A DNA stretch of 32,000 nt. Source: Geotalea daltonii FRC-32. Lineage in GTDB: Bacteria > Desulfobacterota > Desulfuromonadia > Geobacterales > Geobacteraceae. The notes under the pieces were generated by a model. The model was given only the letters and a program-made list of their open reading frames with translations, was not told where the DNA came from and did no database searches. Shown piece by piece: positions 7,042 to 32,000 of this stretch. Numbering within the stretch: position 1 is the stretch's first letter; each line of letters opens with the position of its first letter. A program made the translations under genes and the position numbers. The stretch covers positions 3,450,001-3,482,000 of the forward strand of contig NC_011979.1 of assembly GCF_000022265.1 (NCBI RefSeq), written 5' to 3'.

Positions 7042-7043
7042 GA

Positions 7044-14072: not shown

Positions 14073-14076
14073 AAAC

Positions 14077-15120: not shown

Positions 15121-15135
15121 ACCAAACCCACCCCA

Positions 15136-15246: not shown

Positions 15247-15276
15247 CAACTACAAGACTTATAAGGTAAACACAGC

Positions 15277-18799: not shown

Positions 18800-18804
18800 G
18801 ATCC

Positions 18805-19510: not shown

Positions 19511-21079
19511 CTATTTCCCCCGCATCACATCCTCTATCTCAGCCGGCGCCGGGCGTTTGCTGAAGGCGTTTGTCCGCCTTGCCTCCGCCTCCATCTGCCC
19601 CAGGACCGATAGGAGATGATCCGCTGTGGTGATCCGGTAAAACCTGCCTATTTTCGATTCAAGACCCGAGATATCGCTTTTCCCGGGAAAGACGACCAGC
19701 CCGTACACCGGCAATTGGGGCAACCGTCCCTTCACCATGTTCATCAGGTTCATCACATAGTCACGCACCTGGTGATAGGGGTTTTCTCCCCAGTCCCCTT
19801 TAACTTCGACTGTTTGGTTACCGCTCCCCCGGCAGAGCCATTTGGAATTCTCCACCGAGCCTTCCGCTTCAATGGCGCCGAAGTAGCCCTTTGCCTCAAT
19901 GACAATCAGGCAGTCCTTGCTGATGACGATACAGTCGATAAAGCGGCTCCCCCTGTTGCCCGTTGCCACGTCGAACTGACTCACCACCCGCCAATGGCCG
20001 CTTTTGGCCTGGGGACTGTCGGCGACGATCCTGATCACCTGCTGTTCGAAAGCTGTGCCAGTCTTTGTACCGATGGCGCTGGAAAGGGTCTTGGAAGCCT
20101 CCACCTTGTCCCGCCCCACCGCCTTTTTATATTTCTCCACCTCTATCTGCAGCTGTTCCTTTTCAACCCTGGTCAGGTCAAGCTGTTCTTCAAATAGTTT
20201 GGACTGCCGGTTGTTTTCCTCTTCCAGATCCCTGATGATGCTCTCGGCAGCCTCGCGGTATTCCACCACATCCTTCAGCCTTTGCTCAAGCCCCCTGATA
20301 CGTCCGATGTAGGTTTCAAACTGCCTGCTGAACCGTAGTTGTTGATCCTCAATCTGACGCCCCTTCTCCTCCAGCTGGGCTACGTAAGTGTCGGCATCCT
20401 TGACCAACTCAGCCTCACGCTGCCGGGCATTGCGCAGCTCTATTCGTCTGATCTTTAGGAAAAGCTCCAGGAGCAGCCAGATGAATATCCCCCCCATGAG
20501 ACAGGAGGTCATGGTTGCCAGATATCGCCGCCACAGCTCGTTATCCCGGAAGGGATCATGCAACCATTGCCGGTAGTCTTCACTGAAAGAAGGAATGGTG
20601 CTGATGGAATAGACGCGCCCAATGATCTGGCCACTATGTCCGGCTTTGCCGTCCATCTGCTGCAGCAGCTGGAGAACGGATGAGGACGGTCTGCGGAGCA
20701 CTATATACGGATAGTTGAGCAGGTCTGTTGCATCAATGGGCTTATTTGGAATCAAGCCGGGACTTGTCCGAAAGAGAATGTTCTGCCCGCTGCAGTTTTC
20801 CTCGCCGGTCCTGCAGTCGGTTATCACCAGGGCGTAGATGCTGTAATTGCGATCCAGGAGCTCCTGCAGCTTGCCATGGTTTCCCTCCAGCAGAAGACTT
20901 GAGAGGAGGTTTGCATTCAGACCCATTCGGGCTTCCGCATGGACCTTGATCATGGTTTTGCCAAGGTAATCGGAAAAATTGCGGCCATTGAGGTAATTGG
21001 CCATGAGAACGGCAAGATAGAGGATGATGCAAAGCCTGATGCCGCTGTATGCCAGCTGTTTCAGCAACGCCTTCGACAT
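19511..21079 (-). CDS. Membrane-anchored coiled-coil protein with a C-terminal NERD (nuclease-related) domain
   Basis: 522 aa. Hydrophobic helices lie at about aa 13-29 and 188-209, flanking a roughly 160-aa loop. A heptad-rich E/K/R/Q segment spans about aa 212-325. The C-terminal NERD-like core is FIDCIVISKDCLIVIEAKGYFG. The gene is convergent with the PPTase gene, with 4 nt between the two stops. Confidence 0.7.
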   Translation of the reverse strand: MSKALLKQLAYSGIRLCIILYLAVLMANYLNGRNFSDYLGKTMIKVHAEARMGLNANLLSSLLLEGNHGKLQELLDRNYSIYALVITDCRTGEENCSGQNILFRTSPGLIPNKPIDATDLLNYPYIVLRRPSSSVLQLLQQMDGKAGHSGQIIGRVYSISTIPSFSEDYRQWLHDPFRDNELWRRYLATMTSCLMGGIFIWLLLELFLKIRRIELRNARQREAELVKDADTYVAQLEEKGRQIEDQQLRFSRQFETYIGRIRGLEQRLKDVVEYREAAESIIRDLEEENNRQSKLFEEQLDLTRVEKEQLQIEVEKYKKAVGRDKVEASKTLSSAIGTKTGTAFEQQVIRIVADSPQAKSGHWRVVSQFDVATGNRGSRFIDCIVISKDCLIVIEAKGYFGAIEAEGSVENSKWLCRGSGNQTVEVKGDWGENPYHQVRDYVMNLMNMVKGRLPQLPVYGLVVFPGKSDISGLESKIGRFYRITTADHLLSVLGQMEAEARRTNAFSKRPAPAEIEDVMRGK

Positions 21080-21154: not shown

Positions 21155-21194
21155 CAAATTAAAATCGCCGTGACGAAGGGTCCGCCACGGCGAA
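21155..21194 (-). terminator. Rho-independent terminator downstream of the OmcS-like gene
   Basis: The minus-strand RNA reads TCGCCGTG-GCGGACCCTTCGT-CACGGCGA. The 8-bp GC-rich stem can be extended by inner pairs and is followed directly by TTTTAATTT. It lies 27 nt after the stop at 21220-21222. Confidence 0.75.
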
Positions 21195-21219: not shown

Positions 21220-22443
21220 TCAATCCCGTGCATGGCACTTGTTGCACAACTGCCGCTGAAAGGTGGCAAATTGTGCCGGGTCCCGATTGTACATGGCTGC
21301 CTTGTACTCAGTTCTCAGCTTGCCGGTGGAATTTTCCCCTTCCTTCCCCTTGCCGCCTGCGTCAATGCCCGGGTATTCTCCCCCAACGGTGATAAAGGTC
21401 CCTTTCATATTCCACCTGCCAATGCCGTCCCAACCGGAGGCGTGGGCGCGATGGCAGCTAAGGCATGTCACCCGGTCGTCGGGATTGGGGCCGTTGCTGG
21501 AGGTAAGCTCCGCAGCCAGCTGTTGAGGATCGGTTGTTTCGGTTGTCTGGAACGGTACCAGTGAAGTGTAGGCATTGGCCTGGATGCCGCTCAGATCGCC
21601 AGACTTGATGTAATTGTTGTAGACTCCGGCAATGGGGCCGAGCTCTGCGTCGGATGGGTGGACATGGCTCATGCTGCTCCCCTGCAGGAATGCCTCATGG
21701 CAGTTGGCGCACCACTTGGACACCCCTTTGCCATAGGCGACCCGGGTATCCCTGCCACTTTCGGGGCGGTTGTACTCCTTGGGAGCGACGGCAATGGGGG
21801 GATCATGGGCAAAAACATGGCTGGTTCCCCCGGCTTGGTAACCCTTGCCTGCCAGGAGGCGATAGCTGCCGACAGCTCCATTGGCGGTGGGGACGGCACC
21901 ATATGAACCGGATTCGCCGATGGGATTTATGTCGGTGGCGATGGTGCCGTAAACATCCACCAGCCGGTAATTTCCATGGGGATCATGGCAGCTGATGCAA
22001 GAGAGTGACTGGGCGGGATAACTGCCACCTGGCGAGACATGAAGGGTGCTGTCCCCCACATAGCCATAGGCCGCGGCAACGATGTTGTGCCCATGCCTTT
22101 CACCGGGACTGCTCCCCCCGGTGCCGTTGGTATTGACCCAGCTGTAGTTTTTTTTCACGTAGGCGAAGTCTCCACCCGGAGTCATGGCTTTGGGTGCAAG
22201 CCCCCTGGCCGGGGCCGGCTCTGTGGCTATCTGGTGTGCCTGGGGGTTCGGAGCACCATGGCAGCGCAGACAGGTGGAGCTGGGATCAGGACCGAGAAGA
22301 GAGGTATAGTTGGTGTCTGCCCCCCTTGAGCCGTGGCAGCCTTCGCAGGCACCAGTGTGCCCTCCATGGAATTTTTCTGCCCAGCCGGAGCCTGCAGTGG
22401 TCAGGATCAAGGCAATTGTTGTCAGGATGCCCGTGATACCCAT
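21220..22443 (-). CDS. omcS: OmcS-family hexaheme c-type cytochrome (extracellular filament / nanowire-type subunit)
   Basis: 407 aa with a signal peptide (…TTAGSGWA/EK). The six CxxCH motifs are CEGCH, CLRCH, CISCH, CANCH, CLSCH and CNKCH. Long blocks match the G. sulfurreducens OmcS sequence as I recall it: FHGGxxxxCEGCH, MTPGGDF.YVKK.Y.W, GER.GHNIVA, SCHDPHG.YR, RVAYG.G.S.WCANCH, Y.KSGDL.G.QA.AY.SL.PF, CLSCHRAHASG and LCNKCHA.D at the C-terminus. Confidence 0.85.
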   Translation of the reverse strand: MGITGILTTIALILTTAGSGWAEKFHGGHTGACEGCHGSRGADTNYTSLLGPDPSSTCLRCHGAPNPQAHQIATEPAPARGLAPKAMTPGGDFAYVKKNYSWVNTNGTGGSSPGERHGHNIVAAAYGYVGDSTLHVSPGGSYPAQSLSCISCHDPHGNYRLVDVYGTIATDINPIGESGSYGAVPTANGAVGSYRLLAGKGYQAGGTSHVFAHDPPIAVAPKEYNRPESGRDTRVAYGKGVSKWCANCHEAFLQGSSMSHVHPSDAELGPIAGVYNNYIKSGDLSGIQANAYTSLVPFQTTETTDPQQLAAELTSSNGPNPDDRVTCLSCHRAHASGWDGIGRWNMKGTFITVGGEYPGIDAGGKGKEGENSTGKLRTEYKAAMYNRDPAQFATFQRQLCNKCHARD

Positions 22444-22582
22444 TTTTTCCCCCTTGATGTTACCCTGTTACTTCAGACATAGCTTGAGTAACAGTATCGG
22501 TAACCGGGGGAAAACCTTTACCACAATCGATTTAAGCGAATCTAATAACGTACTGCAGTCCTGCAGGGCGAACGATTCGAGG

Positions 22583-22912
22583 TCAGTCTATCCTGTTGTA
22601 AATGGCCTGTTCCCCTTGGCCGGCAAGAACAAAGGTATTGCTCTTTTCCAGCCTGCCGTAAAGGGTTCGGCTATTGCCCATGAAGTTGATGAGCAACTCG
22701 ATCCTCCCGTCCTTGAGCTTTTTCCAGGTGAAGGGAAGACTTGGGTTGTTCTGCACGTTAAAGGTACCGGTGCTGTCTTTCCTGAATTCTACCGTTTCAG
22801 GCATATTTATGTTTTTCCATTTCCCCGTCACATCATTGCCTTGCTTGCAGGCCAGAAAAGACAGGCACACTGCAACTATGATCAACAGTAGGACCGGTTT
22901 CAATGCTTTCAT
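22583..22912 (-). CDS. Small lipoprotein of unknown function (109 aa)
   Basis: The track ORF extends to 23131, but the internal ATG at 22912 has an AAGGAA RBS. It gives MKALKPVLLLIIVAVCLSFLAC, a signal peptide with lipobox. The longer version would overlap the Sel1 gene. Confidence 0.65.
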   Translation of the reverse strand: MKALKPVLLLIIVAVCLSFLACKQGNDVTGKWKNINMPETVEFRKDSTGTFNVQNNPSLPFTWKKLKDGRIELLINFMGNSRTLYGRLEKSNTFVLAGQGEQAIYNRID

Positions 22913-22950
22913 GTAATTTCCTTTTTCAGCCTTGATAAGTACAGTCCCTG

Positions 22951-23466
22951 CTACTTCTCGCTCATCACCTTGAGCAGTTTCCGTGCCTTGCCATGTCCCT
23001 GCCTGGCCGCCTTGCGCAGCCATTTCATCGCTTCCTGCTTGTCCTTTTCCACACCTTCGCCGTTGGTGTACATGAGCCCCAAGTTGAACTGTGACTGGGC
23101 ATGCCCCTTTTCCGCCGCCCTGCGGTACCATTTGGCAGCGGCAGCCATATCCCTGGCAACGCCGTCACCCTTGTCGTACATCATGCCCAGGTTGTACTGG
23201 GCCCGTACCAGACCTTTTTCCGCCGATCGCTGCAGCCATTTCAATGCCTCGGTCTTGTTCGGCTCAACCCCTTCACCCCGAAAGTACATGACGCTCAGCA
23301 CATAGCTGGCATCGGCGCCGCCATCCGCCTTCAGCTCCTTCAGGGCGGTCTGGTATTCCTTTCTCTGGTAGGCATCCAGGCCGGTCTTGAAATCGGCACC
23401 TGCCGTCCCGACAACGGTACAGCAAAGGATAAGACAAACAGCGGCAAACAGTTTGTTGTGCTTCAT
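22951..23466 (-). CDS. Secreted Sel1-like (SLR/TPR-family) repeat protein
   Basis: 171 aa with a signal peptide. It carries three to four Sel1 repeats, for example A.YNLGMMYDKGDGVARDMAAAAKWYRRAAEKGHA.SQFNLGLMYTNGEGVEKD. An AGGAG RBS is present. Confidence 0.85.
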   Translation of the reverse strand: MKHNKLFAAVCLILCCTVVGTAGADFKTGLDAYQRKEYQTALKELKADGGADASYVLSVMYFRGEGVEPNKTEALKWLQRSAEKGLVRAQYNLGMMYDKGDGVARDMAAAAKWYRRAAEKGHAQSQFNLGLMYTNGEGVEKDKQEAMKWLRKAARQGHGKARKLLKVMSEK

Positions 23467-23493
23467 CTGAAATCGCTCCTGTGCTTTTCCTGT

Positions 23494-24396
23494 TTATTTG
23501 ACTGCTTCGAACAACTGTATCCTGCTGTTATCCCGGTCGGCGATGAAGACACTCCCCGAAGGTCCGAGACATATCTGCCCCGGATAATAAAGCAGGCCGT
23601 TTTTTCTCCCCATGCCCAACTGCCTGGCAAGGAAAGAGCCATCCTGGCCGAAGCTCACCAGGGCTCCGCCGTTCTGGTCGACCACCAGGATATTCCCCCG
23701 TGCATCAACGGTAAGGTAACCCGGAAATGATAGGTACTCCCGCAGGTTGTTCACCAATGGGGCAAATTCCTTGGCGGCACCGGAAGCGGCATAGATAATG
23801 CCGTTGGTGCTGTCGGCAAGATAAATGGTTCCTTTGCCGTCAACCGCCAAATCGACCATGAACCCGTAGCCTTTGGGGAAAGGCGCCTGGCTTAAGAATT
23901 TCCCCCCCTGGTCCAGCACCAGCACGCGCTCGGCAAAGATGTCCAGGAGATAGAAGCGCCCTTCGCTGTCGATTTTAAAGGCAGAGGCGATAAAGGCAGG
24001 GGCTGGAACACCCTGAGGGTCAAGATAGCCCTGGAAGGCGCCAGCCTGGCTGATGCGCACGATGCGTCGGGATTTGGCATCAAGGGCATAGATGTCTCCC
24101 TTGGCGGACAACTGGACCCGCACCGGATTGGCCAACTGGGCAGGCCTGAGTTCCGCCCCCCCTTTGACGCTGTCCCCGTCCAGCGTATAGCGCACCAGGC
24201 GGCCATTGCCCGAATCAGCAACCACCAGTGACGAAGCATCGCACGCAACCCCTTCCGGGTTCTTCAGCTCCACCCCTTTCTCGTCGCCGTAGATGGTGGT
24301 CAGATGTTTGATCTTTACCATATCAGCAGCAAAGGACAGGGCTGGAAGGAGCGATATCATGGCCAGAGCCATGGAGAAATATCTGCAGGATATCAT
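23494..24396 (-). CDS. Periplasmic NHL-repeat beta-propeller protein
   Basis: The preferred start is ATG 24396 (RBS GAGGTG), giving the signal peptide MISCRYFSMALAMISLLPALSFA. Repeated NHL-type blades are visible (NGRLVRY, SRRIVRIS, ERVLVLDQGGKF, NGIIYAA, NILVVDQNGGALVSF, NSRIQLFE). There is no CxxCH motif. The start lies 5 nt after the stop of the 16-heme cytochrome gene. Confidence 0.8.
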   Translation of the reverse strand: MISCRYFSMALAMISLLPALSFAADMVKIKHLTTIYGDEKGVELKNPEGVACDASSLVVADSGNGRLVRYTLDGDSVKGGAELRPAQLANPVRVQLSAKGDIYALDAKSRRIVRISQAGAFQGYLDPQGVPAPAFIASAFKIDSEGRFYLLDIFAERVLVLDQGGKFLSQAPFPKGYGFMVDLAVDGKGTIYLADSTNGIIYAASGAAKEFAPLVNNLREYLSFPGYLTVDARGNILVVDQNGGALVSFGQDGSFLARQLGMGRKNGLLYYPGQICLGPSGSVFIADRDNSRIQLFEAVK

Positions 24397-24401
24397 GGTC
24401 T

Positions 24402-25685
24402 TCACCTCTTGAATTGTTCGTGGCACTGGGTGCACAGCTCCGTTGGTGTGGCGAACGGAATGAAGTGCTTGTATTCCGTGCCGTGGGACCGGTGGCAACT
24501 CAGGCATTGCAAGGTGATGTTCTTGTCCCGCGGGTCCTTGAACTTTTCCCCGATGGGATGGGTGGAATGCTTCTGCCAGTCATGGCAGGTGCCGCATAAC
24601 TCGATGATCGAAGGCTGAGAGGTAAGGAACGTGTTGTCCGACGAATGTGGATCATGACAGGACATGCAGTCCCCGTCCTGGATCGGCGGATGCTTGGTCA
24701 GGGACTGCTCCTGGCGCTTGATGGTATCCTTGTGGCACCGGCCGCAGACAGCGATCATATTGTCTTTCAACAGCCCCTTTTTCGGTGCAGCATGGGGATT
24801 GTGGCAGGTAAGACATCCATCCCTGCTCAAAAGCGGCCAGTGCATCTGTTTCTTACCGAAGGTCTTGTTGACCATCTCGTTATGGCATCCCTTGCACAGC
24901 TCATAACCTGGCCGTTTGGTTTTAAGGGGAGTGGCCGAGCCGGATTCCCCATGGCACTGATTGCATTGCTTGTTGGCCACCGGCTTGTGCACGGCATTGA
25001 ACAAGATGCCAGGATTGTTCGAACCGTGGGGGTCATGACAGGAGGTGCAGCGGGCGGTCGCCACCGGGTAGTTCATATGCTGTTTGGCAAAGAGGGGGCG
25101 GTCGGTCTTGTGACAGCCGATGCACAGAGCCGGCACATCGTTTTTCAGCAGATAGCCGTATTTGGCTGAAACGTGGGGATCGTGGCAGTTGAGACAGCCC
25201 TTTGCCACGGGTGCGTGCTTGAATTTTATCTTGACCAGCATGCCGGCCAGATCCTTGTGGCAATCCAGGCACAGTTCATTGCCAGCCTTGAGAAGATTGT
25301 TCTTGTTGGCTGCAGAATGGGGATCATGGCACTTGACGCATTGCCCCTCTGCAACCACCCTGTGGACACTTTTGTCGGTGTCCTGGCCAAGCCTTGCGTG
25401 GCAGGAATAGCAGATATCCTTTGGATCCGAAGCCAGAAGCTTGCCATGGGATGAGGTATGGGGACTGTGGCAGCCGGTACATTCACCCGCTTTGACCGGC
25501 GTATGGATCACCGGCTTTTTCAGCTTTTCCTGGAAATCATTGTGGCAATTGAGGCAGAGCTTGCCGTTGGCGCCCGGTTTCAGCTTGTACTTCAGGGCAT
25601 TGTCCTGGGCTCCCTGCGATAGGGTGGCCGATCCCAGGAAAAAGAGCGTCAACAGGCAGAAAGCCGATGCTGATAGATATTTCAT
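24402..25685 (-). CDS. Periplasmic multiheme c-type cytochrome with 16 CxxCH motifs
   Basis: The preferred start is ATG 25685 (RBS AAGGAG), giving the signal peptide MKYLSASAFCLLTLFFLGSATLSQGA. I counted 16 CxxCH by eye. Most are arranged as paired CxxCH ... CxxCHxPH modules (doubled-CXXCH type). Confidence 0.9.
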   Translation of the reverse strand: MKYLSASAFCLLTLFFLGSATLSQGAQDNALKYKLKPGANGKLCLNCHNDFQEKLKKPVIHTPVKAGECTGCHSPHTSSHGKLLASDPKDICYSCHARLGQDTDKSVHRVVAEGQCVKCHDPHSAANKNNLLKAGNELCLDCHKDLAGMLVKIKFKHAPVAKGCLNCHDPHVSAKYGYLLKNDVPALCIGCHKTDRPLFAKQHMNYPVATARCTSCHDPHGSNNPGILFNAVHKPVANKQCNQCHGESGSATPLKTKRPGYELCKGCHNEMVNKTFGKKQMHWPLLSRDGCLTCHNPHAAPKKGLLKDNMIAVCGRCHKDTIKRQEQSLTKHPPIQDGDCMSCHDPHSSDNTFLTSQPSIIELCGTCHDWQKHSTHPIGEKFKDPRDKNITLQCLSCHRSHGTEYKHFIPFATPTELCTQCHEQFKR

Positions 25686-25695
25686 GATAACTCCT

Positions 25696-27669
25696 TTACT
25701 GCTTGCCGACGATGTGGCATTCGTCGCACGACCTGGCCGCGAAGGGAGCGTGTATCGTCTCTTTGAAAAATTTCGGGTCCTGTGAAGCATGAGGGGTGTG
25801 GCAGGTCATGCAGTTCATATCTGCAGCGGCAATACCCAGGTGCCCCTTGTTGAAGGCCGCGTCGCCGGTATCATGACACTGGGCGCACAGCTCCTGTACC
25901 GGCTGGCCGGTCAGTGCCCGATAGGGGGCGAAATGCGGTTTATGGCACTGCTGGCAGTCCTTTGCCGCCGGTGAATGTACCTTCTCCTTGCCGATCTTTT
26001 CCTTCAGCGACTTATGGCAGGTAAGACAAAGGTCGGGCGCCTGGGCGAGAAGAAGCTTGTTCAGGGATGACTTGTGCGGACTGTGACACTTGGTGCAATC
26101 CCCTGCCAGCAGAGGCTGATGCTTGCTTTTCGCCTCCACCAGTCCTTTCTTCAGATCGATATGACATTCCATGCAGAGCAGATCCTGCTTCTTCACCAGC
26201 ATCCCGGCTGTATTGCTACCGTGGGTATCATGGCAGGTGAGACATTCGCCGCTGTTAAACGGCATGTGGTTTGAGCCTCCCACCGATTCCTTCATCAGGT
26301 CGCCATGGCACTGGCTGCACAATTTGGCTCCCGAAGCCTTGAGCAGTTTACCTTCATCGGAGCTGTGCGCCTTATGGCAGGAGGTGCAGGTACCATCGGC
26401 GACCGGTCGGTGAGTATAACTTTTCTTGAACCTTGTTTCGGCCTCCGGATGGCAGCCATAGCAGATGTTGTCCATTCGGTCCTTGAACATGCCGGGCATA
26501 TTGGAGCCATGGGGATTATGACAGGAACTGCATTCACCACCGGCAAAGGGAGGATGGACAGTCTTGTTTTTCATGGCATCTTTCGTCCTGGCATGGCAGG
26601 GATAGCACAGCTCCGCATCCTTGGCCGACAGCAGCCCCCTGTTTTTGGCAGCGTGGTGCGTGTGGCAGGATAGACAGCCTTTCCCTTTGCCGACTGCTGC
26701 ATGGGGATAGGCCATGGCAGCAGCTTTATTCTTATGGCAACCGAAGCAGAGTTTGTTGCCGTCAGCGGCAAGAAGCCGTGGATAGTCCGAGGTGTGGGGG
26801 TTATGACAGGAGATGCAATCTCCCCCTTTGAAAGGCGCGTGAATGATGTTCCCATCCCCCTTCAGACCCTTCTCGTCATGGCACTGATAGCAGAGCGCAC
26901 TCCCCTTCCGGGTAACGGCAAAGGGTTTGGCTGAGGTGACGGCATCGTGACAGCCGTCACAGCCTCCGGAGGCAACCGGATTATGGGTGCTCCCCCGCAA
27001 AAGTTTTGCCTGGTCTGAAGAATGGGGAGTGTGGCAGATGGTGCAGCGTTTGGTTTCAACAGGATAGTTGCCGTGGGCCTTTTTAAAGCCTGTCTTGCCG
27101 CTATCATGGCAACCCAGGCAAAGCTTTGGTTCGGCACTGGCGAGGAGAAACTTTTCGTCGGAGCTGTGGGAGTAATGGCAGGCCTTGCAGCCTTGCTTGG
27201 CCAGCACCCCATGGACGAATTTCTTCTGGTAATCGTCCTTCTTATGACATTGGAAACAGATCTCATTGCCTTCTGCCTTCAGCAGATGACTGCCGTTGGA
27301 GGCATGGGGGTTATGGCAGAGGGTGCACTTGCCGGTTTTCAGGGCCGTATGTACATTGGGCTTGGTCAAGGCCGTCTTTACGTTGTTGTGGCATTTGAAG
27401 CAGAGGGCGTTCCCCGTCTCCTTCAAAAGCAGCTTCGGTACCACCCCGTGGCGCAGGTGGCAATCCTCGCATCTCTTCTCCTTGACCACCGCATGAACAT
27501 CCTTCATGCCCAGGTATTTGTCGGCAAACTTCTTATGGCAGTCCAGGCATTCCTTACGGGCGAATGTCCGCGCCGCCTCTGATGGCCTGGGTGAAAGGAG
27601 TATCACGGAGCTGCACAGGATCAGCAGCAGAATGATCAGTAATTTATTTTCAGTGAATGAATGAAACAT
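25696..27669 (-). CDS. Periplasmic giant multiheme c-type cytochrome with 26 CxxCH motifs
   Basis: The preferred start is ATG 27669 (RBS GGAG), giving MFHSFTENKLLIILLLILCSSVILL. Alternative starts lie at 27720 and 27717. I counted 26 CxxCH by eye, in the same paired-module grammar as the downstream 16-heme gene. The stop lies 10 nt before the next start. Confidence 0.9.
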   Translation of the reverse strand: MFHSFTENKLLIILLLILCSSVILLSPRPSEAARTFARKECLDCHKKFADKYLGMKDVHAVVKEKRCEDCHLRHGVVPKLLLKETGNALCFKCHNNVKTALTKPNVHTALKTGKCTLCHNPHASNGSHLLKAEGNEICFQCHKKDDYQKKFVHGVLAKQGCKACHYSHSSDEKFLLASAEPKLCLGCHDSGKTGFKKAHGNYPVETKRCTICHTPHSSDQAKLLRGSTHNPVASGGCDGCHDAVTSAKPFAVTRKGSALCYQCHDEKGLKGDGNIIHAPFKGGDCISCHNPHTSDYPRLLAADGNKLCFGCHKNKAAAMAYPHAAVGKGKGCLSCHTHHAAKNRGLLSAKDAELCYPCHARTKDAMKNKTVHPPFAGGECSSCHNPHGSNMPGMFKDRMDNICYGCHPEAETRFKKSYTHRPVADGTCTSCHKAHSSDEGKLLKASGAKLCSQCHGDLMKESVGGSNHMPFNSGECLTCHDTHGSNTAGMLVKKQDLLCMECHIDLKKGLVEAKSKHQPLLAGDCTKCHSPHKSSLNKLLLAQAPDLCLTCHKSLKEKIGKEKVHSPAAKDCQQCHKPHFAPYRALTGQPVQELCAQCHDTGDAAFNKGHLGIAAADMNCMTCHTPHASQDPKFFKETIHAPFAARSCDECHIVGKQ

Positions 27670-27773
27670 ATTTTTCTCCAACAGGAAACCCTGGATAATA
27701 AGGCTCCTGATTAGCATCATTCTCTGCCATGGATCCCTCTAGATATTTCGGTATGCACTCCGCTGACAGCCTG

Positions 27774-29516
27774 CTAATTGCCCAGGTCGGTGATATAGAC
27801 CTGCACCTTATAGGCTTCCCGAAGCTTTTGACCCCAATCTTCCACGGACTTGTTGAGCTTCTGGTTAAAGACCTCCTTGGTGATCGACTGCTTCACCTGT
27901 TCCAGAGGCTGCGGTTTTGCAGGGATCACTTCCTGCACCTGTATCACATAGACAAAACCCTCCGGCGTCTCGAACAACCTGTACTCGCCGGGCTTAGCCG
28001 CAGCAATTGCTTCCTGCATTTTTTCGGGCAGGCTCTTGCGGGTTACCGGAGTTTGCGAGAAGGACATCAGCCCTTCCGTATCACCGGGCACCAAACCTTC
28101 AGCGTTTGCCTGCAGCCATTGGTATTCGGTTCCTTTTTGCAATTTCTCCATGGCAGCTTCGGCAAAATCCTTCCTGGTGAAGGCGAGTCCCCGGAGCTTC
28201 AGCATCTCCGGCAGTGAAAACTCGTCGATTTCCGCATTGTAATGGGCTTTGATCTCCTCATCGGTTACCTTGATTTCAGAGGCTACCACTTTCTGGATGA
28301 ACATGCCGAACAGCAGCGAGTCCCTGAAATCCTTGATCCTGTTTTTGTAACTTTCAGTTTTATCCAGGCCGAGCTTTTTTGCCTCCATAGGATAAAGTCT
28401 GGCGTAGAAAATATCGTATAGCGCCGGCATTTTCTGCTCATTGATACGCTTGCCCTTGGCCGCTTCCTTGACCCCATGGAAAAACTTCTGCTTGAGCATT
28501 TCGCCCAGGTCGGCAACGGTGATCGGCTTATCCCCTTTGATGGTGGCGATGACCCGCTTATCCTTGAGCAACTTGTCAAAACCGGGCTTGGCTGACTCGA
28601 AATCCAGCTTGTCGAGTAACTTCCTGTCTATCTTGGCGTATTTCTTCACCAACATACCGTTATATTCGGTAAGCACCTGGAGCTGTTTCAGGGCCAGGGC
28701 CTGTTCCCGTGCGGCTTCCCTGGCCTCCATATCGTCAGCGGGATAGCGGATATCTTCCAGCTTGAGGATGGTGTAAGCGGGGCCCACCTGAACAACCGGG
28801 CTAATGCCGCCAACCCTGAGACTGGAGACAATGTGGGCAACCTGGGGAAGCAGTTCCTTTGCCTTGACGAATTCCCCTTCCTTGACGCCGGTGGCCTTGC
28901 CCGATTCGATCAGGCTGTTTGCCAGCTCGTCGAAATTGCCCCCGGCCTGGACTGCCCTGGCCAGTTCCTTGGCATCATCCTCCTTGTCAAAACGAACAGA
29001 TTTAACCTTAAGCTCCTTGACCGCTTCCTTGTAAAACCTCTCCGTATCTGCTTCTGCCGGCTTCAGGTCCTTGATTTGCTGCTCCTTCAATTCCTCCTTG
29101 ATGGCCATCCTGGGGAAATCTTCCAGTTTCTCCTTCACCTCGGGAAGGTCTGCAAGGCCCATGTTTTCTGCTTCCTGAACGATCAACTTGCTGTTGATCA
29201 AGCGATTGAGCACGATGTTATAGTCTTTCTTTCCCGCCGATTCATCTTCCCCGGCACGCTGATGTAAAGCTGCCAGTGACTGATTGAATTCCTCCATGGT
29301 CACCACGTCGTCCCCCACCGTCGCCACCGGCACGGAAGCGAACTTTGGCGAAAGCAGCGGTATTTTCAGGGTAATCCGGGACTCAGCCACCGGTGAGGCG
29401 TTTTCTTTTAATTCGTCGCCGGTTTTTGGCGCAACCGGACTCGGTTCAGCAGCGATCGACAGTGTCCCGAACAAAAGGCTGACCAGAAATGCTTTCATCA
29501 TCATGGTTCGTTTCAT
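27774..29516 (-). CDS. SurA-like periplasmic chaperone / peptidyl-prolyl isomerase with two parvulin-like domains
   Basis: The preferred start is ATG 29516 (RBS AGGGAGAG), giving the signal peptide MKRTMMMKAFLVSLLFGTLSIAA. Parvulin-like blocks are AVQAGGNFDELANS...LRVGGISPVVQVGPAYTILKLEDI and MEKLQKGTEYQWL...AKPGEYRLFETPEGFVYVIQVQEV. The N- and C-terminal chaperone-like helical regions are K/E-rich. Confidence 0.75.
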   Translation of the reverse strand: MKRTMMMKAFLVSLLFGTLSIAAEPSPVAPKTGDELKENASPVAESRITLKIPLLSPKFASVPVATVGDDVVTMEEFNQSLAALHQRAGEDESAGKKDYNIVLNRLINSKLIVQEAENMGLADLPEVKEKLEDFPRMAIKEELKEQQIKDLKPAEADTERFYKEAVKELKVKSVRFDKEDDAKELARAVQAGGNFDELANSLIESGKATGVKEGEFVKAKELLPQVAHIVSSLRVGGISPVVQVGPAYTILKLEDIRYPADDMEAREAAREQALALKQLQVLTEYNGMLVKKYAKIDRKLLDKLDFESAKPGFDKLLKDKRVIATIKGDKPITVADLGEMLKQKFFHGVKEAAKGKRINEQKMPALYDIFYARLYPMEAKKLGLDKTESYKNRIKDFRDSLLFGMFIQKVVASEIKVTDEEIKAHYNAEIDEFSLPEMLKLRGLAFTRKDFAEAAMEKLQKGTEYQWLQANAEGLVPGDTEGLMSFSQTPVTRKSLPEKMQEAIAAAKPGEYRLFETPEGFVYVIQVQEVIPAKPQPLEQVKQSITKEVFNQKLNKSVEDWGQKLREAYKVQVYITDLGN

Positions 29517-29539
29517 AACTCTCCCTTTATCCCCTGCTG

Positions 29540-29725
29540 TCATTTAGTTTCCATCCGGAAAGGGTTCTTTTCTGCCCTGGCGGCGTCAATCTGCGGGCTT
29601 ACTTGTGCGACGTACCGATGTACGTCTCCGCGCAAGCCCTTGATTTCCTTGCCAGAACAAAAAATCCCCTCTTTCCGAATCGGAAACCATTAGTTTCTCA
29701 TCCGGAGTTTCCGGATGGAAACCAT
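29540..29725 (-). promoter_or_regulatory. Repeat-rich, highly structured intergenic region (leader of the chaperone gene / internal operon regulator)
   Basis: Three palindromic GTTTCC-N4/5-GGAAA(C/G) sites lie at 29547-29562, 29671-29687 and 29707-29722. A perfect 8-bp/3-nt-loop hairpin spans 29699-29717. A long imperfect hairpin runs from GGGCTT to AAGCCC (29595-29639) with an inner 7-bp stem GACGTAC/GTACGTC. A direct repeat CATT(T)AGTTT starts at 29541, 29688 and 29723. Confidence 0.5.
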
Positions 29726-30844
29726 TTAGTTTTTCCCGATCATGCTCACTATTGCCGCAGCCATCTGGGAGGTCATTTCTCCTGCGGTATTGACTCTGCC
29801 CAGATCGAAAAAAAATACCCCGTCGTCACCTTCGTTATAACTGTGGGAGGTCCATACTACTTCCCGGCTTTTCCTGTCCAGCAAGGTCAACGAGAAATCA
29901 ACCTTCGGCGTCCCCATGCCCCCCTGGTAGTCCTGAAACTCCTGAACTTCACCTGTCAGGACAAGGTCGGCGTTGAGATCATTGAAAAGGACATCGGCAT
30001 TGGCCAGGGATATCCCCCCTTCGAGAATGATCCTGAATTTGAGGAATGCCTGCCTCACCACTCCTGGTTCAATGATAATATGTTTATTATCTTTTGCCAA
30101 TTCTTCAACAAAGTGCAAGGCAACTATTTCTCCGGCGCTTTTCCTGCCACTTTTGTTAATGAAGGGAATAATGGCAATGGTACGCTGCTGTTGCATATCC
30201 AAGCTCGGCGAATGATAGACCGTTTTGGGCCGGAACTTCCTCATCCACTTCCGGCCCTTTTCTTCCCGGCCACTGAAGGCACCGGCAAGACGAACCGCAA
30301 TTGGATCCAGCGCCTTTTCAAGGAGGTGGTCAGGTTTATGGATCTCTCCCATCCCCAAAAGACCCGGAGCATCGTCACCGGCGAGGGCAGCCGAAGTCAT
30401 GCCGATAATTTTCGCCTCCGGGGCGGTGGAAACCAGACGACAGGAGATTGCCACCTTTGGCGGCGCCGCTTCGCTGCTCATTTCCATGGATGAAATGAGA
30501 ACGGCTGCGGCACCGGTCTCTGTTTTCAGTGCCACCAATGTGTCCCTGTCGATGCTGCCGGTGTGACGCAGGCGATGCCTGGCCAGGAATTGGTCGGTTC
30601 CCTTTTCATCCAGTACTCCAACACCCTGCTCCCGCATTTTTTCCGCCAGCGATTGCCGGATACTTTTCAAAGGTACGGCCACGCCGCTCAGGTTTTCCAC
30701 CGGGAGGACAACTATGAATGGTTTTTTTCCTTCCGGAATGGCCGCTGATTTGACCGTGCCGGTTCCGGCGGCACAACCGCCTGCGCCTGAAAGCAGTGCC
30801 AGCAACAGAGCCAGTTTAGTTGAAAAGTTTATCAAGGAGCTCAT
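29726..30844 (-). CDS. Lipoprotein with two tandem LpoB/CsgG/DUF799-like alpha/beta modules
   Basis: 372 aa with signal peptide and lipobox LLSGAGGC. The two halves (about aa 40-160 and 225-345) each follow the same pattern: a hydrophobic strand, then P(V/F).N, then V(L)(I/T)(S/G), then a strand, as in FIVVLPVENLSG...AAVLISSME and IAIIPFINKSG...DLVLTGEVQEF...VVWTS. The start overlaps the upstream gene by 29 nt. Confidence 0.7.
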   Translation of the reverse strand: MSSLINFSTKLALLLALLSGAGGCAAGTGTVKSAAIPEGKKPFIVVLPVENLSGVAVPLKSIRQSLAEKMREQGVGVLDEKGTDQFLARHRLRHTGSIDRDTLVALKTETGAAAVLISSMEMSSEAAPPKVAISCRLVSTAPEAKIIGMTSAALAGDDAPGLLGMGEIHKPDHLLEKALDPIAVRLAGAFSGREEKGRKWMRKFRPKTVYHSPSLDMQQQRTIAIIPFINKSGRKSAGEIVALHFVEELAKDNKHIIIEPGVVRQAFLKFRIILEGGISLANADVLFNDLNADLVLTGEVQEFQDYQGGMGTPKVDFSLTLLDRKSREVVWTSHSYNEGDDGVFFFDLGRVNTAGEMTSQMAAAIVSMIGKN

Positions 30845-31382
30845 TCACTGCCTTTTCCGTTATCCTGTTCATTGGTTCTCCCCCTCCCCCCAAAAGACGT
30901 TCGGACATGCCGATCCCCCCCTGGGTCGACGAGGCGTTCCACACCACTTTGCCACTCTGGGCCTCGATTGCCTGGACACCGAGAGAAATGACGTTGGCTC
31001 CGGAACTTCCGGATCGTACCTCGCCGTACTCCCTGACCACACCAGTGATAACCGCATCAACCTTGATAATACCGGCGAGCTTGATTATGTCCTCGGGGGA
31101 CGGAGCAGCGGCGTTAGTTATGCCGGCACGGGACAAGCCCCGCAGTACCTCCCCCGCCGGCATCACATATATGGCGCCGGTTGCCATAAGCATGTTGGAA
31201 AAGACATCCCTCACCCTTTCCGCCGCCTGATTGTCGCGGGTGAGATTGGCAAAAGGCAGAACGGCAACGGTTCTTACCGAGCCAAAATCCATGTTGGCGT
31301 CCCGATAGACGTCGGCTGTTGTCCCACAACCGGCTGCAAAAATCAGGCAGATCAGAGTCATACTGATACGTATTCGTTTCAT
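30816..31382 (-). CDS. DUF799/GNA1162-like (LpoB-fold) lipoprotein
   Basis: The preferred start is ATG 31382, giving MKRIRISMTLICLIFAAGC (lipobox). Alternative starts lie at 31403 and 31400. The body reads VAVLPFANLTRD...VDAVITGVVREYG...ISLGVQAIEAQSGKVVWNAS, which matches the single-module version of the neighbouring lipoprotein. Confidence 0.7.
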   Translation of the reverse strand: MKRIRISMTLICLIFAAGCGTTADVYRDANMDFGSVRTVAVLPFANLTRDNQAAERVRDVFSNMLMATGAIYVMPAGEVLRGLSRAGITNAAAPSPEDIIKLAGIIKVDAVITGVVREYGEVRSGSSGANVISLGVQAIEAQSGKVVWNASSTQGGIGMSERLLGGGGEPMNRITEKAVNELLDKLFN

Positions 31383-31430
31383 CACACATCCTGGTTGCAT
31401 CATTTTTGTTTTACTTCTCCCTTCATAAAA

Positions 31431-32000
31431 TCAGAAAAAGATCCGGTAGGTAGCGTTGAAGATCTTTGAATCGAGCGACTGCCTGTGAGACGTGGAGCTG
31501 GTAAAAGAGTAACTCAGGTCAAGGAGGCTTTTACTGGTTATTTTCCAGGAAAGATTCGGAGAGATCAGCCTTTCCTTTGACCGCTCGAGACTGCGCAGGC
31601 TCTCATTGTAGGCAAAGCCGAACTGGATGGCTCCATCGGGAAACGGGGACCAGTTGACCCCGTAGTTCATCAAGGTATCGAAGGTACTGTTCTGCTCAAC
31701 CACCCCGATAGAGCCGAACAGGTACATGGCCGGAAACGGGCGGAAAGAAGCGTTGAATTCTCCCCGTTGCTGAAACGGATTCTGGTTCTGCGCCATGGCC
31801 AGAGAGGAAATGGTCTTGTTCAGGGTATAGTTGATGTTCATGCTCAGGGTAGGGTGCGGCACGATGTTGGCGCCGAAGACCATGCTGTAATCGTCCTCTT
31901 TTACCCCGGTTTCGGTAGTGACGTAGGTAGCCCCTCCGGACAGGTTGACGCTCACCCCCTTGTACAGGTCCGCATGATTATGGAGATAGATGGAGTTGGT
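31431..32000 (-). CDS. Outer-membrane beta-barrel protein, 3' part (5' end lies beyond the window)
   Basis: The frame is open from the window edge (…TNSIYLHNHADLYKGVSVNLSGG…). Beta-strand-like segments with alternating hydrophobic/polar residues and aromatic girdles are visible. The C-terminal signature is ...NATYRIFF, ending in Phe. Confidence 0.65.
   Translation of the reverse strand, partial: TNSIYLHNHADLYKGVSVNLSGGATYVTTETGVKEDDYSMVFGANIVPHPTLSMNINYTLNKTISSLAMAQNQNPFQQRGEFNASFRPFPAMYLFGSIGVVEQNSTFDTLMNYGVNWSPFPDGAIQFGFAYNESLRSLERSKERLISPNLSWKITSKSLLDLSYSFTSSTSHRQSLDSKIFNATYRIFF

What the first reader, a model, noticed from the sequence alone, without database searches (positions are those of the whole stretch)
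21220..32000. Ten-gene co-oriented locus ending in an OmcS-type filament cytochrome: candidate dedicated nanowire biogenesis and charging machine
All ten genes from the truncated beta-barrel to the OmcS homolog are on the minus strand. Junctions run from a 29-nt overlap to a 209-nt gap, and the locus ends at a strong intrinsic terminator 27 nt after omcS.

The inventory reads like an envelope-spanning pathway:
- an outer-membrane barrel
- three LpoB/CsgG-fold lipoprotein modules
- a SurA-like double-parvulin chaperone
- 26-heme and 16-heme periplasmic cytochromes
- an NHL propeller
- a Sel1 scaffold
- a small lipoprotein
- the hexaheme filament subunit

No T2SS, pilin, sortase-like or ATPase gene is present in the window. 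If these genes export and polymerise OmcS, they would therefore do it by a mechanism unrelated to known fibre systems. The closest analogy would be curli-like secretion (CsgG-type lipoprotein channel plus periplasmic chaperone).

From memory, a similar neighbourhood (PPIase, 26-heme cytochrome, NHL, Sel1) lies next to omcS in G. sulfurreducens. I also recall that an 'omcS-companion' cluster has recently been proposed. I cannot verify either point here.
Basis: partly seen in the sequence, partly recalled or inferred. Interest (0 to 1): 0.9.

Follow-up and report, generated by a model that had tools for sequence, protein, structure and literature searches.

The report
Known OmcS nanowire assembly gene cluster
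This stretch is the Geotalea (Geobacter) daltonii copy of the already published "omcS-companion" (osc) gene cluster that folds and exports cytochrome nanowires, so it is real but not new, and the cytochrome gene at its end is an unusual paralog rather than the typical wire subunit.

Summary
Ten co-oriented minus-strand genes run with junctions of -29 to +209 nt and end at a strong terminator. The window is Geotalea daltonii FRC-32.

The genes are the 3' two-thirds of the osc (omcS-companion) cluster described by Shen et al. 2025 in G. sulfurreducens. A 2025 preprint already lists G. daltonii as carrying the eight-gene block GSU2500-2493. An overlapping contig shows the locus continues past the window: two-component system, NHL protein, a 430-aa hexaheme, beta-propeller OscD, and the full 739-aa barrel OscE.

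The order NHL-hexaheme-D-E-F-G-H-I-J-K recurs in Myxococcota, Nitrospirota, Schekmanbacteria and most metagenomic OmcS loci.

- The window's 407-aa hexaheme has the OmcS fold (TM 0.82, 46% identity) and all 11 in-subunit heme histidines. It lacks the arm carrying the histidine that OmcS donates to the neighbouring subunit.
- All 53 hexahemes at the 5' end of such clusters keep that histidine, including the upstream G. daltonii gene (57% identical to OmcS).
- The three lipoprotein modules match PelC and GNA1162, not CsgG.
- Sel1, the small lipoprotein, the 407-aa hexaheme and a NERD gene form a 3' add-on seen only in Geobacteraceae.

Verdict: already known, with modest new detail.

The parts
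31431..32000 (-). 3' end (last 189 codons) of the OscE-like outer-membrane beta-barrel. The full gene is 739 aa and continues beyond the window.
   Evidence: Contig L007 overlaps the window exactly and gives the full ORF. The protein ends in ...YRIFF, and most of 25 homologs end in an aromatic beta-signal. It has no Pfam, NCBIfam or PDB sequence match. One of 15 homologs hits OMP_b-brl.
30816..31382 (-). OscF-like lipoprotein, 188 aa, one PelC/GNA1162-like module
   Evidence: Pfam GNA1162-like, E 1.6e-7. The lipobox Cys19 is invariant in 13 homologs. The family profile hits PelC 9h80_C at E 2.3e-6, PelC 5t11/5t10 at about 1e-5 and GNA1162 4hrv at 2.3e-5.
29726..30844 (-). OscG-like lipoprotein, 372 aa, two tandem modules homologous to OscF; overlaps oscF by 29 nt
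   Evidence: Pfam LpoB, E 7.6e-9, on the C-terminal module. hhalign: OscF versus the OscG C-module, probability 98.9%, E 1e-17; OscG N-module versus C-module, 96.5%, E 7e-10.
29517..29725 (-). 209-nt intergenic insert that folds into a very stable long hairpin and carries three TTTCC-N4/5-GGAAA palindromes
   Evidence: MFE -98.4 kcal/mol, z = -9.5, 0 of 200 shuffles fold as well. All 3 pattern matches in the 32-kb window lie here, against 0.18 expected. Inverted repeat with 15-nt perfect arms 146 nt apart. Relatives lack it: their gaps are 23, 85 and 100 nt. No Rfam match.
27774..29516 (-). OscH-like periplasmic chaperone/prolyl isomerase, 580 aa (locus tag Geob_3161)
   Evidence: Pfam Rotamase_2 (2 stretches), Rotamase, and weak SurA_N_3. 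PDB matches: PEB4 3rfw over residues 345-572 and PrsA 6vj4 over 152-256. Identified as Geob_3161 of G. daltonii FRC-32.
25696..27720 (-). OscI-like 26-heme periplasmic cytochrome, 674 aa
   Evidence: 26 CXXCH motifs. Thirteen paired-CXXCH units. NCBIfam DmsE/MtrA decaheme family, 300.6 bits against a cut-off of 192.2. GSU2495 (= oscI) is described as about 70 kDa with 26 hemes. The heme count is kept in Geomonas, Anaeromyxobacter and others.
24402..25685 (-). OscJ-like 16-heme periplasmic cytochrome, 427 aa
   Evidence: 16 CXXCH motifs. DmsE family, 210 bits against a cut-off of 192.2. The 16-heme count is conserved across phyla.
23494..24396 (-). OscK-like six-bladed NHL beta-propeller, 300 aa, with signal peptide
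   Evidence: Pfam NHL, E 3e-16. PDB NHL propellers (PknD-derived Pizza6), E 8e-25. Holds the last position of the core block in Anaeromyxobacter and in Nitrospirota locus L003.
22951..23466 (-). Secreted Sel1-repeat protein, 171 aa; first gene of the Geobacteraceae-only 3' add-on
   Evidence: Pfam Sel1, three repeats, E 2.9e-37. Present after OscK in Geomonas oryzae and in L095, with a likely counterpart (173 aa, no Pfam hit on record) in L091. Absent in Anaeromyxobacter, Nitrospirota and Schekmanbacteria.
22583..22912 (-). Small putative lipoprotein, 109 aa
   Evidence: Signal peptide ending ...LSFLAC. Only a weak DUF5640 hit. A 108-109-aa gene sits in the same position in Geomonas and L091.
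21220..22443 (-). OmcS-family hexaheme cytochrome, 407 aa, of a divergent clade that lacks the inter-subunit histidine arm
   Evidence: 100% identical to a G. daltonii FRC-32 protein. E 4e-91 to OmcS 6EF8, 46% identity. AF2 pLDDT 81.5; the only significant Foldseek PDB hit is 6ef8_A, TM 0.82. The 11 invariant His are kept, while OmcS His16 and about 18 following residues are absent.
21155..21193 (-). Intrinsic terminator closing the co-oriented run
   Evidence: 13-bp stem with 8 G-C pairs plus a U-run. The 73-nt stretch containing it folds to -27 kcal/mol, z -3.2.
19511..21079 (-). NERD-domain membrane/coiled-coil protein, 522 aa; a conserved 3' neighbour located after the terminator
   Evidence: Pfam NERD, E 3e-18. 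It follows the cluster in Geomonas oryzae, L091 and L095 even though the flanks beyond it differ.

Best explanation
The region is the Geotalea daltonii FRC-32 version of the osc (omcS-companion) cluster. This is a modular envelope machine that matures, exports and probably wires OmcS-family cytochrome filaments.

**Proposed working**
- Hexaheme subunits are exported by Sec and receive their hemes in the periplasm.
- The double-parvulin chaperone OscH keeps them folding-competent.
- The lipoproteins OscF and OscG are three PelC-like modules. They form a ring under the outer membrane that docks on the large OscE barrel, and subunits leave through that barrel.
- The propeller proteins OscD and OscK control assembly and morphology.
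- The MtrA/DmsE-like 26-heme OscI and 16-heme OscJ carry electrons across the periplasm to the base of the filament.

**What the window holds**
- The window contains OscE (3' end only) through OscK.
- It also contains a Geobacteraceae-specific add-on: a Sel1 protein, a small lipoprotein and a divergent hexaheme.
- The likeliest main filament subunit is the upstream 430-aa hexaheme, which lies outside the window. The 407-aa hexaheme in the window is an accessory paralog.

**Shown here**
- Gene content, gene order and domain identities.
- Synteny across phyla.
- The OmcS fold of the 407-aa protein.
- The absence of the trans-histidine.

**Taken from the literature**
- Roles in folding (OscH), secretion (OscE, F, G) and morphology (OscD).

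**Inferred**
- The PelC-like ring.
- The charging role of OscI and OscJ.
- The accessory status of the 407-aa protein.
For: **Organism.** The window is G. daltonii FRC-32.

**Published osc cluster and roles.**
- PMC13194489 gives omcS = GSU2504, oscC = GSU2501, oscI = GSU2495 and oscJ = GSU2494. It assigns OscH to folding, OscE/F/G to secretion and OscD to morphology.
- bioRxiv 10.1101/2025.11.06.686851 describes an eight-gene block, GSU2500-2493, downstream of a GSU2501-like hexaheme in 12 Geobacter genomes. G. daltonii is one of them.
- GSU2495 is described as a 26-heme, ~70 kDa protein. This matches the 26-heme, 674-aa gene in the window.

**Full G. daltonii order.** The composite of L007 and the window reads NHL-hex430-D-E-F-G-H-I-J-K.

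**Synteny beyond G. daltonii.**
- Anaeromyxobacter diazotrophicus carries the whole order.
- Nitrospirota and Candidatus Schekmanbacteria loci carry parts of it in the same order.
- Among metagenomic OmcS-homolog loci, 28 of 37 have OscD immediately downstream.
- Of the 17 loci with at least 7.5 kb of downstream sequence, 13 have D+E, 12 have F+G and 11 have H.
- Heme counts of 26 and 16 are conserved, apart from 25 in the Schekmanbacteria OscI and 17 in the L091 OscJ.

**Component identities.**
- OscF and OscG consist of three homologous modules related to PelC and GNA1162.
- PelC forms a 12-lipoprotein ring in the PelBC outer-membrane export complex (abstract of PMC12141448).
- OscE homologs carry the C-terminal beta-signal.
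- The 407-aa hexaheme has the OmcS fold.
Against: - I could not obtain the G. sulfurreducens Osc protein sequences. Orthology to GSU2493-2500 therefore rests on gene order, domain content, heme counts and the statement in the preprint, not on direct alignment.
- I could not read Shen et al. 2025. I saw its conclusions only second-hand, and those sources call the mechanism 'proposed' or 'still speculative'.
- No filament has been reported for G. daltonii in anything I read.
- OscE has no detectable similarity to PelB or to any solved barrel.
- The charging role of OscI and OscJ is inference only.
- OmcS homologs also occur without the cluster: 9 of 37 informative loci, of which about 5 show no osc gene within the flank read.
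Confidence: 0.85

Rival explanations
1. The 407-aa hexaheme in the window is itself the homopolymeric nanowire subunit that this machine exports.
For: - It has the full OmcS fold (TM 0.82) and six hemes.
- All 11 in-subunit ligand histidines are conserved.
- It is co-oriented with the machine genes, with no terminator called on the minus strand in any intergenic gap before it.
- OmcZ filaments polymerise without any inter-subunit histidine (PMC9473688). Loss of the trans ligand therefore does not by itself forbid a filament.
Against: - It lacks OmcS His16 and the following ~18-residue arm.
- All 53 hexahemes at the 5' end of osc-type clusters keep that histidine.
- It is only 46% identical to OmcS, against 57% for the upstream paralog.
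- One relative (L095) keeps Sel1, a small gene and NERD but has no hexaheme at that position. Another clade member is an orphan far from any osc gene.
- In every cluster where this clade occurs, a His16-bearing paralog is also present.
Confidence: 0.25
2. The cluster is primarily a porin-cytochrome electron conduit of the Mtr, Pcc or Ext type. The OscE barrel would sheathe the MtrA-like OscI and OscJ, and the hexaheme would be the surface partner. On this view it is not a protein secretion and assembly machine.
For: - OscI and OscJ score above the curated cut-off of the DmsE/MtrA decaheme family (300.6 and 210 bits against 192.2).
- A barrel, periplasmic multiheme cytochromes and an extracellular cytochrome are the parts list of such conduits.
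- OscE matches no known secretion pore.
Against: - Known porin-cytochrome conduits, as far as I know, do not include a PelC-like lipoprotein ring, a double-parvulin chaperone or two to three propeller proteins.
- The literature summary reports that OscE, F and G are needed for OmcS secretion and OscH for folding.
- The two functions are not mutually exclusive.
Confidence: 0.1
3. The co-orientation and tight spacing are a chance neighbourhood of unrelated envelope genes.
For: The promoter and terminator scans are at chance level overall: 6 found against 6.1 expected, and 13 against 13.4.
Against: The same gene order is kept in four phyla and in most metagenomic OmcS loci. Heme counts are also conserved.
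Confidence: 0.01

Closest known systems
osc (omcS-companion) cluster of Geobacter sulfurreducens, GSU2504-GSU2493 (Shen et al. 2025, Cell Chem Biol 32:239)
   Same: - The parts list and order of the eight-gene block match: propeller D, barrel E, lipoproteins F and G, prolyl isomerase H, 26-heme I, multiheme J and NHL K.
- The block sits downstream of an OmcS-family hexaheme.
- G. daltonii is explicitly listed as a carrier.
   Different: - G. daltonii has a single hexaheme upstream, where G. sulfurreducens has omcS-omcT-oscC.
- It carries an extra 3' module: Sel1, a small lipoprotein and a His16-less hexaheme, followed by a NERD gene.
- A 209-nt structured insert sits between oscG and oscH.
- I made no direct alignment to the GSU proteins.
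PelBC exopolysaccharide export complex of Pseudomonas aeruginosa (PelC lipoprotein ring on the PelB barrel; PDB 9h80, 5t11)
   Same: - The OscF family profile matches PelC at E 2e-6 to 1e-5.
- OscF is lipidated and is encoded next to an outer-membrane barrel.
- OscF plus OscG give three such modules per gene pair.
   Different: - The cargo here is a heme protein, not a polysaccharide.
- OscE is much larger than the PelB porin and shows no sequence similarity to it.
- The ring stoichiometry is unknown.
Curli secretion (CsgG channel with CsgE/CsgF)
   Same: It is an ATP-independent outer-membrane lipoprotein-based export route for a fibre subunit that uses periplasmic helpers. From my memory of Pfam, LpoB, GNA1162-like and CsgG belong to related families.
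   Different: - Neither Pfam nor the PDB profile search matches CsgG.
- The osc system has a separate beta-barrel, whereas CsgG forms its own channel.
Porin-cytochrome conduits (MtrCAB; OmbB-OmaB-OmcB; Ext clusters)
   Same: It pairs a barrel with MtrA/DmsE-like periplasmic multiheme cytochromes and an extracellular cytochrome.
   Different: The osc cluster adds a chaperone, PelC-like lipoproteins and propellers. Its surface cytochrome belongs to the OmcS fold, which polymerises.
OmcS filament subunit (PDB 6EF8 / 6NEF)
   Same: - The fold matches (TM 0.82), with six CXXCH motifs in the same order.
- The 11 in-subunit axial histidines are invariant.
   Different: - The twelfth ligand of OmcS comes from the neighbouring subunit and binds heme 5 (PMC6584659; PMC7096707). 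That this residue is His16 is from my memory of Wang et al. 2019.
- This residue and its arm are missing in the window protein.
- The clade instead carries His209 (11 of the 15 His16-less members) and His260 (all members).

Membership tests
osc (omcS-companion) cluster | An OmcS-family hexaheme cytochrome gene is physically linked to the block. | tested here: met
   There are two: the 407-aa gene in the window and the 430-aa gene directly upstream of OscD on the overlapping contig L007.
osc (omcS-companion) cluster | The eight-gene block is in the order propeller (D), barrel (E), lipoproteins (F, G), prolyl isomerase (H), two large multiheme cytochromes (I, J) and NHL protein (K). | tested here: met
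   The composite of L007 and the window shows this order. The same order appears in Anaeromyxobacter and, in part, in Nitrospirota and Schekmanbacteria. The preprint names G. daltonii as a carrier.
osc (omcS-companion) cluster | OscI is a ~70 kDa, 26-heme cytochrome (GSU2495). | tested here: met
   The window gene is 674 aa with 26 CXXCH motifs. The description of GSU2495 is and the name oscI is.
osc (omcS-companion) cluster | Each gene shows direct sequence orthology (reciprocal best hits) to GSU2493-GSU2500. | not tested
   The G. sulfurreducens sequences could not be retrieved. The paper is not held. The homology searches did not list the GSU proteins. The metagenome scan gave at best 72% identity to OmcS.
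osc (omcS-companion) cluster | The genes are required for folding, secretion and morphology of OmcS filaments. | not testable with these tools
   This needs genetics in G. daltonii. The function is known only second-hand for G. sulfurreducens.
OmcS-type filament subunit | OmcS fold with six CXXCH motifs in register. | tested here: met
   phmmer E 4e-91 over the full length. AF2 model pLDDT 81.5; the only significant Foldseek hit is 6ef8_A, TM 0.82.
OmcS-type filament subunit | The eleven in-subunit axial histidines are present. | tested here: met
   There are exactly 11 invariant His in a 64-sequence alignment. Six are the CXXCH histidines; the other five are H26, H119, H156, H262 and H334.
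OmcS-type filament subunit | A histidine is donated to heme 5 of the neighbouring subunit (OmcS His16). | tested here: not met
   The window protein reads CEGCHGSRGADT, with an ~18-residue deletion where OmcS has CEGCHTMHNS.... In its clade, 15 of 18 members lack this His. All 53 hexahemes at the 5' end of osc-type clusters have it.
OmcS-type filament subunit | The protein forms extracellular filaments. | not testable with these tools
   This needs cryo-EM and mass spectrometry of G. daltonii filaments.
CsgG-type curli secretion channel | The lipoproteins match the CsgG family. | tested here: not met
   Pfam gives only LpoB and GNA1162-like at E <= 0.01. The PDB profile search at E <= 10 returns PelC, GNA1162 and LpoB but no CsgG.
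PelC-like outer-membrane lipoprotein ring | Sequence-profile similarity to PelC, with an N-terminal lipobox. | tested here: met
   9h80_C E 2.3e-6; 5t11 E 8.7e-6; 5t10 E 1.4e-5; 5t0z E 2.2e-4. The lipobox cysteine is invariant. The OscG modules are homologous to OscF.
PelC-like outer-membrane lipoprotein ring | Oligomeric ring docked on a partner barrel. | not testable with these tools
   The barrel gene is adjacent.
SurA/PrsA/PEB4-type parvulin chaperone | Parvulin PPIase domain(s) flanked by a chaperone domain, in a secreted protein. | tested here: met
   Rotamase at residues 184-264 and Rotamase_2 at 426-552. SurA_N_3 scores E 1.4e-5, below the Pfam cut-off. PEB4 3rfw E 5.9e-5 and PrsA 6vj4 E 9.6e-4. 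A signal peptide is visible in the sequence.
MtrA/DmsE-family periplasmic multiheme cytochrome | Score above the curated TIGR03508 cut-off. | tested here: met
   OscI scores 300.6 bits and OscJ 210 bits against a cut-off of 192.2. Both match as repeated modules.

The most novel reading that the evidence does not exclude
The His16-less hexaheme clade at the 3' end of Geotalea and Geomonas osc clusters may be a specialised non-donor partner of the nanowire built from the upstream His16-bearing paralog.

It lacks the donor arm but keeps the OmcS fold and heme chain. It could therefore sit only at the filament end whose subunit need not donate a histidine. There it would act as a base, tip or terminator that sets polarity and provides the electron entry or exit site. 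Alternatively it could be a self-ligated monomer, with the clade-specific His209 or His260 closing heme 5, that shuttles electrons to the wire.

The conserved companions (Sel1 protein, small lipoprotein, NERD membrane protein) would then be its dedicated handling or anchoring module.
Probability: 0.15. Interest if true: 0.7.

Novelty: already known. Interest (0 to 1): 0.27.

Why it matters
How cytochrome nanowires are folded, exported and anchored was a long-standing gap in extracellular electron transfer, and the osc cluster is the published answer for OmcS. This window adds no new system.

It does give three testable details:
- Not every OmcS-fold gene next to the machine keeps the inter-subunit histidine. 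Calling nanowires from homology alone is therefore unsafe.
- The lipoprotein components resemble the PelC ring of a polysaccharide exporter. This gives a concrete structural model for the secretion pore.
- Geobacteraceae carry a conserved 3' add-on of unknown role.

Tried and rejected
**Attempts that led nowhere**
- Shen et al. 2025 is not held, by DOI or by PMC id. Wang et al. 2019 is also not held. A text search for 'His16' with OmcS found nothing useful. The residue number therefore rests on my memory. The fact that one heme-5 ligand comes from a neighbouring subunit is cited from papers.
- The G. sulfurreducens Osc proteins could not be retrieved.
  - The PPIase search returned 88 relatives but no GSU protein.
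  - The 26-heme search was swamped by generic multiheme proteins and did not even return the query itself.
  - The genome-collection scan found only 4 loci and not G. daltonii.
  - Scanning metagenomes with OmcS gave at best 72% identity.
- Two look-ups found no record (P0013; P0123).

**Ideas tested and rejected**
- A cyclic-dinucleotide (GEMM) riboswitch upstream of the hexaheme, as I recall for G. sulfurreducens omcS. Rfam finds nothing at gathering score in the window or L007. At E <= 1 it finds nothing meaningful in the 139-nt or 209-nt gaps.
- Internal sigma-70 promoters. The hits are at chance level.
- CsgG homology was not found.
- The TTTCC-N-GGAAA palindromes as a conserved operator. 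They are absent from related loci, and close relatives have short gaps. They look like a strain-specific insertion.
- OmcS His247 as a ligand replaced by His260. Exactly 11 His are invariant, which matches the 11 in-subunit ligands. His247 is therefore probably not a ligand.

Full report
**Observation**

- ORF listing and translation confirm ten consecutive minus-strand genes between 21220 and the window end.
- With the starts called on an identical public contig, the junctions are 48, -29, 209, 53, 10, 5, 27, 38 and 139 nt.
- A 13-bp, 8-GC hairpin followed by a U-run begins 26-27 nt after the stop codon of the last gene. The 73-nt stretch containing it folds to -27 kcal/mol, z = -3.2.
- Pfam, NCBIfam and PDB searches confirm every item of the inventory:
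  - a hexaheme, a 16-heme and a 26-heme cytochrome;
  - a double-parvulin chaperone with a weak SurA_N region;
  - a six-blade NHL propeller;
  - a three-repeat Sel1 protein;
  - a small lipoprotein;
  - lipoproteins with LpoB and GNA1162-like matches.
- The rest of the window is a PfaA/PfaC-like PKS cluster on the other strand plus a NERD gene.

**Identity of the organism and true extent of the locus**

- The hexaheme and the prolyl isomerase are 100% identical to proteins of Geotalea (formerly Geobacter) daltonii FRC-32. The isomerase carries locus tag Geob_3161.
- A second public contig, L007, overlaps window 32000..29695 without a mismatch and extends the locus. It adds, in order:
  - a response regulator and a histidine kinase;
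  - a 320-aa NHL protein;
  - a 430-aa hexaheme (P0110);
  - a 474-aa lipoprotein beta-propeller.
- It also gives the full 739-aa barrel, of which the window holds only the last 189 codons. The cluster therefore has at least 13 co-oriented genes.

**What it is**

The literature held here shows that this system is published.
- PMC13194489 summarises Shen et al. 2025. [quoted passage not shown] OscI is GSU2495 and OscJ is GSU2494.
- A 2025 preprint describes GSU2495 as a ~70 kDa, 26-heme protein.
- The same preprint states that 12 Geobacter genomes, G. daltonii among them, carry the eight-gene block GSU2500-2493 downstream of a GSU2501-like hexaheme.
- Counting letters from those anchors gives D = propeller, E = barrel, F and G = lipoproteins, H = isomerase, I = 26-heme, J = multiheme and K = NHL. 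This is exactly the order in the composite G. daltonii locus.
- I could not obtain the GSU sequences or the primary paper. Direct orthology is therefore inferred, not aligned.

**Co-occurrence test**

- The order NHL-hexaheme-D-E-F-G-H-I-J-K is complete in Anaeromyxobacter diazotrophicus.
- It is present in part, in the same order, in two Nitrospirota MAGs and a Candidatus Schekmanbacteria MAG.
- I examined 80 metagenomic loci found with G. sulfurreducens OmcS as the query.
  - 28 of 37 loci with at least 2.5 kb downstream have OscD as the next gene.
  - 28 of 38 have the NHL gene immediately upstream.
  - Of the 17 with at least 7.5 kb downstream, 13 have D+E, 12 have F+G and 11 have H.
- Heme counts of 26 and 16 are kept, apart from 25 in the Schekmanbacteria OscI and 17 in the L091 OscJ.
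- Linkage is therefore strong, though not absolute, because orphan OmcS homologs exist.

**The hexaheme in the window is atypical**

*What it shares with OmcS*
- It has the OmcS fold: phmmer E 4e-91, AF2 pLDDT 81.5, and a single significant Foldseek hit, 6ef8_A, at TM 0.82.
- A 64-sequence alignment has exactly 11 invariant histidines. Six are the CXXCH histidines and the other five are H26, H119, H156, H262 and H334.
- Eleven is the number of axial ligands that OmcS supplies from within one subunit (PMC6584659).

*What it lacks*
- In OmcS the twelfth ligand, on heme 5, comes from the neighbouring subunit, so ligation is part of polymerisation. From my memory of Wang et al. 2019, this residue is His16, in the motif CEGCHTMH.
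- The window protein reads CEGCHGSRGADT and lacks about 18 following residues.
- In its clade (at least 56% identity), 15 of 18 members lack this His. All 18 carry a clade-specific His260.
- Of the 15 His16-less members, 11 carry His209. The three members that keep His16 have Val at that position.

*Comparison with other cluster hexahemes*
- All 36 hexahemes directly upstream of an OscD gene keep the His16 motif. So do all 17 further tandem upstream copies.
- P0110 also keeps it. P0110 is 57% identical to OmcS, against 46% for the window protein.

*Where the His16-less clade occurs*
- It sits at the 3' end of the cluster in G. daltonii, in a 74%-identical relative (L091) and in Geomonas oryzae. 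In each case a His16-bearing paralog is also present.
- One relative has the Sel1, small-gene and NERD arrangement without this hexaheme.
- One clade member is an orphan.

*Reading.* I read the window gene as an accessory paralog and the upstream gene as the likelier main subunit. OmcZ polymerises without inter-subunit coordination, so a filament made of the 407-aa protein is not excluded.

**The export module**

- hhalign shows that OscF, the N-terminal half of OscG and the C-terminal half of OscG are homologous (98.9% and 96.5% probability).
- A profile of 13 OscF homologs matches PelC (9h80_C E 2.3e-6; 5t11, 5t10, 5t0z) and GNA1162 (4hrv E 2.3e-5). LpoB appears only at E of about 0.3, and CsgG does not appear at all.
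- PelC forms a ring of twelve lipoproteins in the PelBC outer-membrane export complex (abstract of PMC12141448).
- OscE homologs mostly end in an aromatic beta-signal but match nothing solved.
- Six of 15 OscE homologs show a weak F5/8-type-C (CBM32-like) insert in the middle of the protein.
- My mechanistic inference is a PelC-like ring built from F and G modules under the OscE barrel. The curli analogy is looser than a Pel-type analogy.

**Electron input**

OscI and OscJ score above the curated cut-off of the DmsE/MtrA decaheme family as repeated modules. This fits a periplasm-spanning wire to the filament base. It also keeps alive a rival reading in which the barrel houses a cytochrome, as in Mtr-type conduits. 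The second-hand report of a secretion defect for OscE, F and G argues for export, and the two roles could coexist.

**3' add-on and other features**

- The Sel1 protein, the 109-aa lipoprotein, the His16-less hexaheme and the NERD-domain protein (the last lying after the terminator) recur in Geotalea and Geomonas relatives. They are absent from Anaeromyxobacter, Nitrospirota and Schekmanbacteria clusters.
- The 209-nt gap between oscG and oscH folds to -98.4 kcal/mol (z = -9.5). It holds all three TTTCC-N4/5-GGAAA palindromes of the window, against 0.18 expected.
- Relatives lack this gap structure: their gaps are 23 to 100 nt. It has no Rfam match. It looks like a strain-specific inserted repeat that may affect transcript processing.

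**Verdict**

The new points are minor refinements:
- a trans-histidine-less OmcS paralog clade at the 3' end of the cluster;
- the PelC-likeness of OscF and OscG;
- a Geobacteraceae-specific 3' module.

Novelty: already known. Interest: about 0.27.

Noticed in passing
window 29517-29725 (minus strand): The only large gap inside the cluster, between oscG and oscH, folds into a long hairpin of -98.4 kcal/mol (z = -9.5). It contains all three TTTCC-N4/5-GGAAA palindromes of the 32-kb window. Close relatives have gaps of only 23-100 nt, so it looks like an inserted MITE- or REP-like element. There is no Rfam match.
   Followed up: partly
window 19511-21079 (minus strand): A 522-aa protein with a membrane anchor, a coiled coil and a NERD domain follows the cluster, after the terminator. 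This is seen in G. daltonii, in two metagenomic relatives and in Geomonas oryzae, even though the genes beyond it differ. In L095 it is present without the 407-aa hexaheme. It is a possible unrecognised cluster member.
   Followed up: partly
window 220-19506 (plus strand): A PUFA-synthase-like polyketide cluster is convergent with the NERD gene. It comprises a PfaA-like KS-AT-ACPx3-KR-DH protein (2273 aa), a KS-KS-AT-FabA protein with three FabA-like stretches (2342 aa), KAS III, an alpha/beta hydrolase, an AMP-binding enzyme, an NAD-binding reductase/epimerase and a phosphopantetheinyl transferase.
   Followed up: partly
L007 2227-5704 (upstream of the window end): An OmpR-type response regulator, a histidine kinase and a 320-aa NHL protein precede the upstream hexaheme. 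The NHL gene sits immediately upstream of the hexaheme in 28 of 38 metagenomic OmcS loci. It appears to be a conserved 5' member that the osc naming seen here does not cover.
   Followed up: partly
L007 8804-11023 (OscE; residues ~310-400): Six of 15 OscE homologs give weak hits to F5/8 type C / NedA-like galactose-binding domains in the middle of the barrel protein. The family profile weakly aligns to a CBM32-like region of a hexosaminidase. This suggests a jelly-roll insert in the barrel.
   Followed up: partly
window 21220-22443 and alignment A3: Across 64 OmcS-family sequences exactly 11 histidines are invariant. This equals the number of in-subunit axial ligands in the OmcS structure. OmcS His247 is not invariant, so it is probably not a ligand.
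   Followed up: yes
L095 16100-18723; L091 6144-9862: The 3' module varies among close relatives. L095 has Sel1, a 75-aa gene and NERD but no hexaheme. L091 has an extra FKBP-type isomerase and an opposite-strand 447-aa hexaheme inserted before the Sel1-like gene.
   Followed up: partly
window 25696-27720: The longest ORF of the 26-heme gene starts 17 codons upstream of a second Met (MFHSF...). That Met precedes a clear signal peptide, so the true start may be at about 27669.
   Followed up: no
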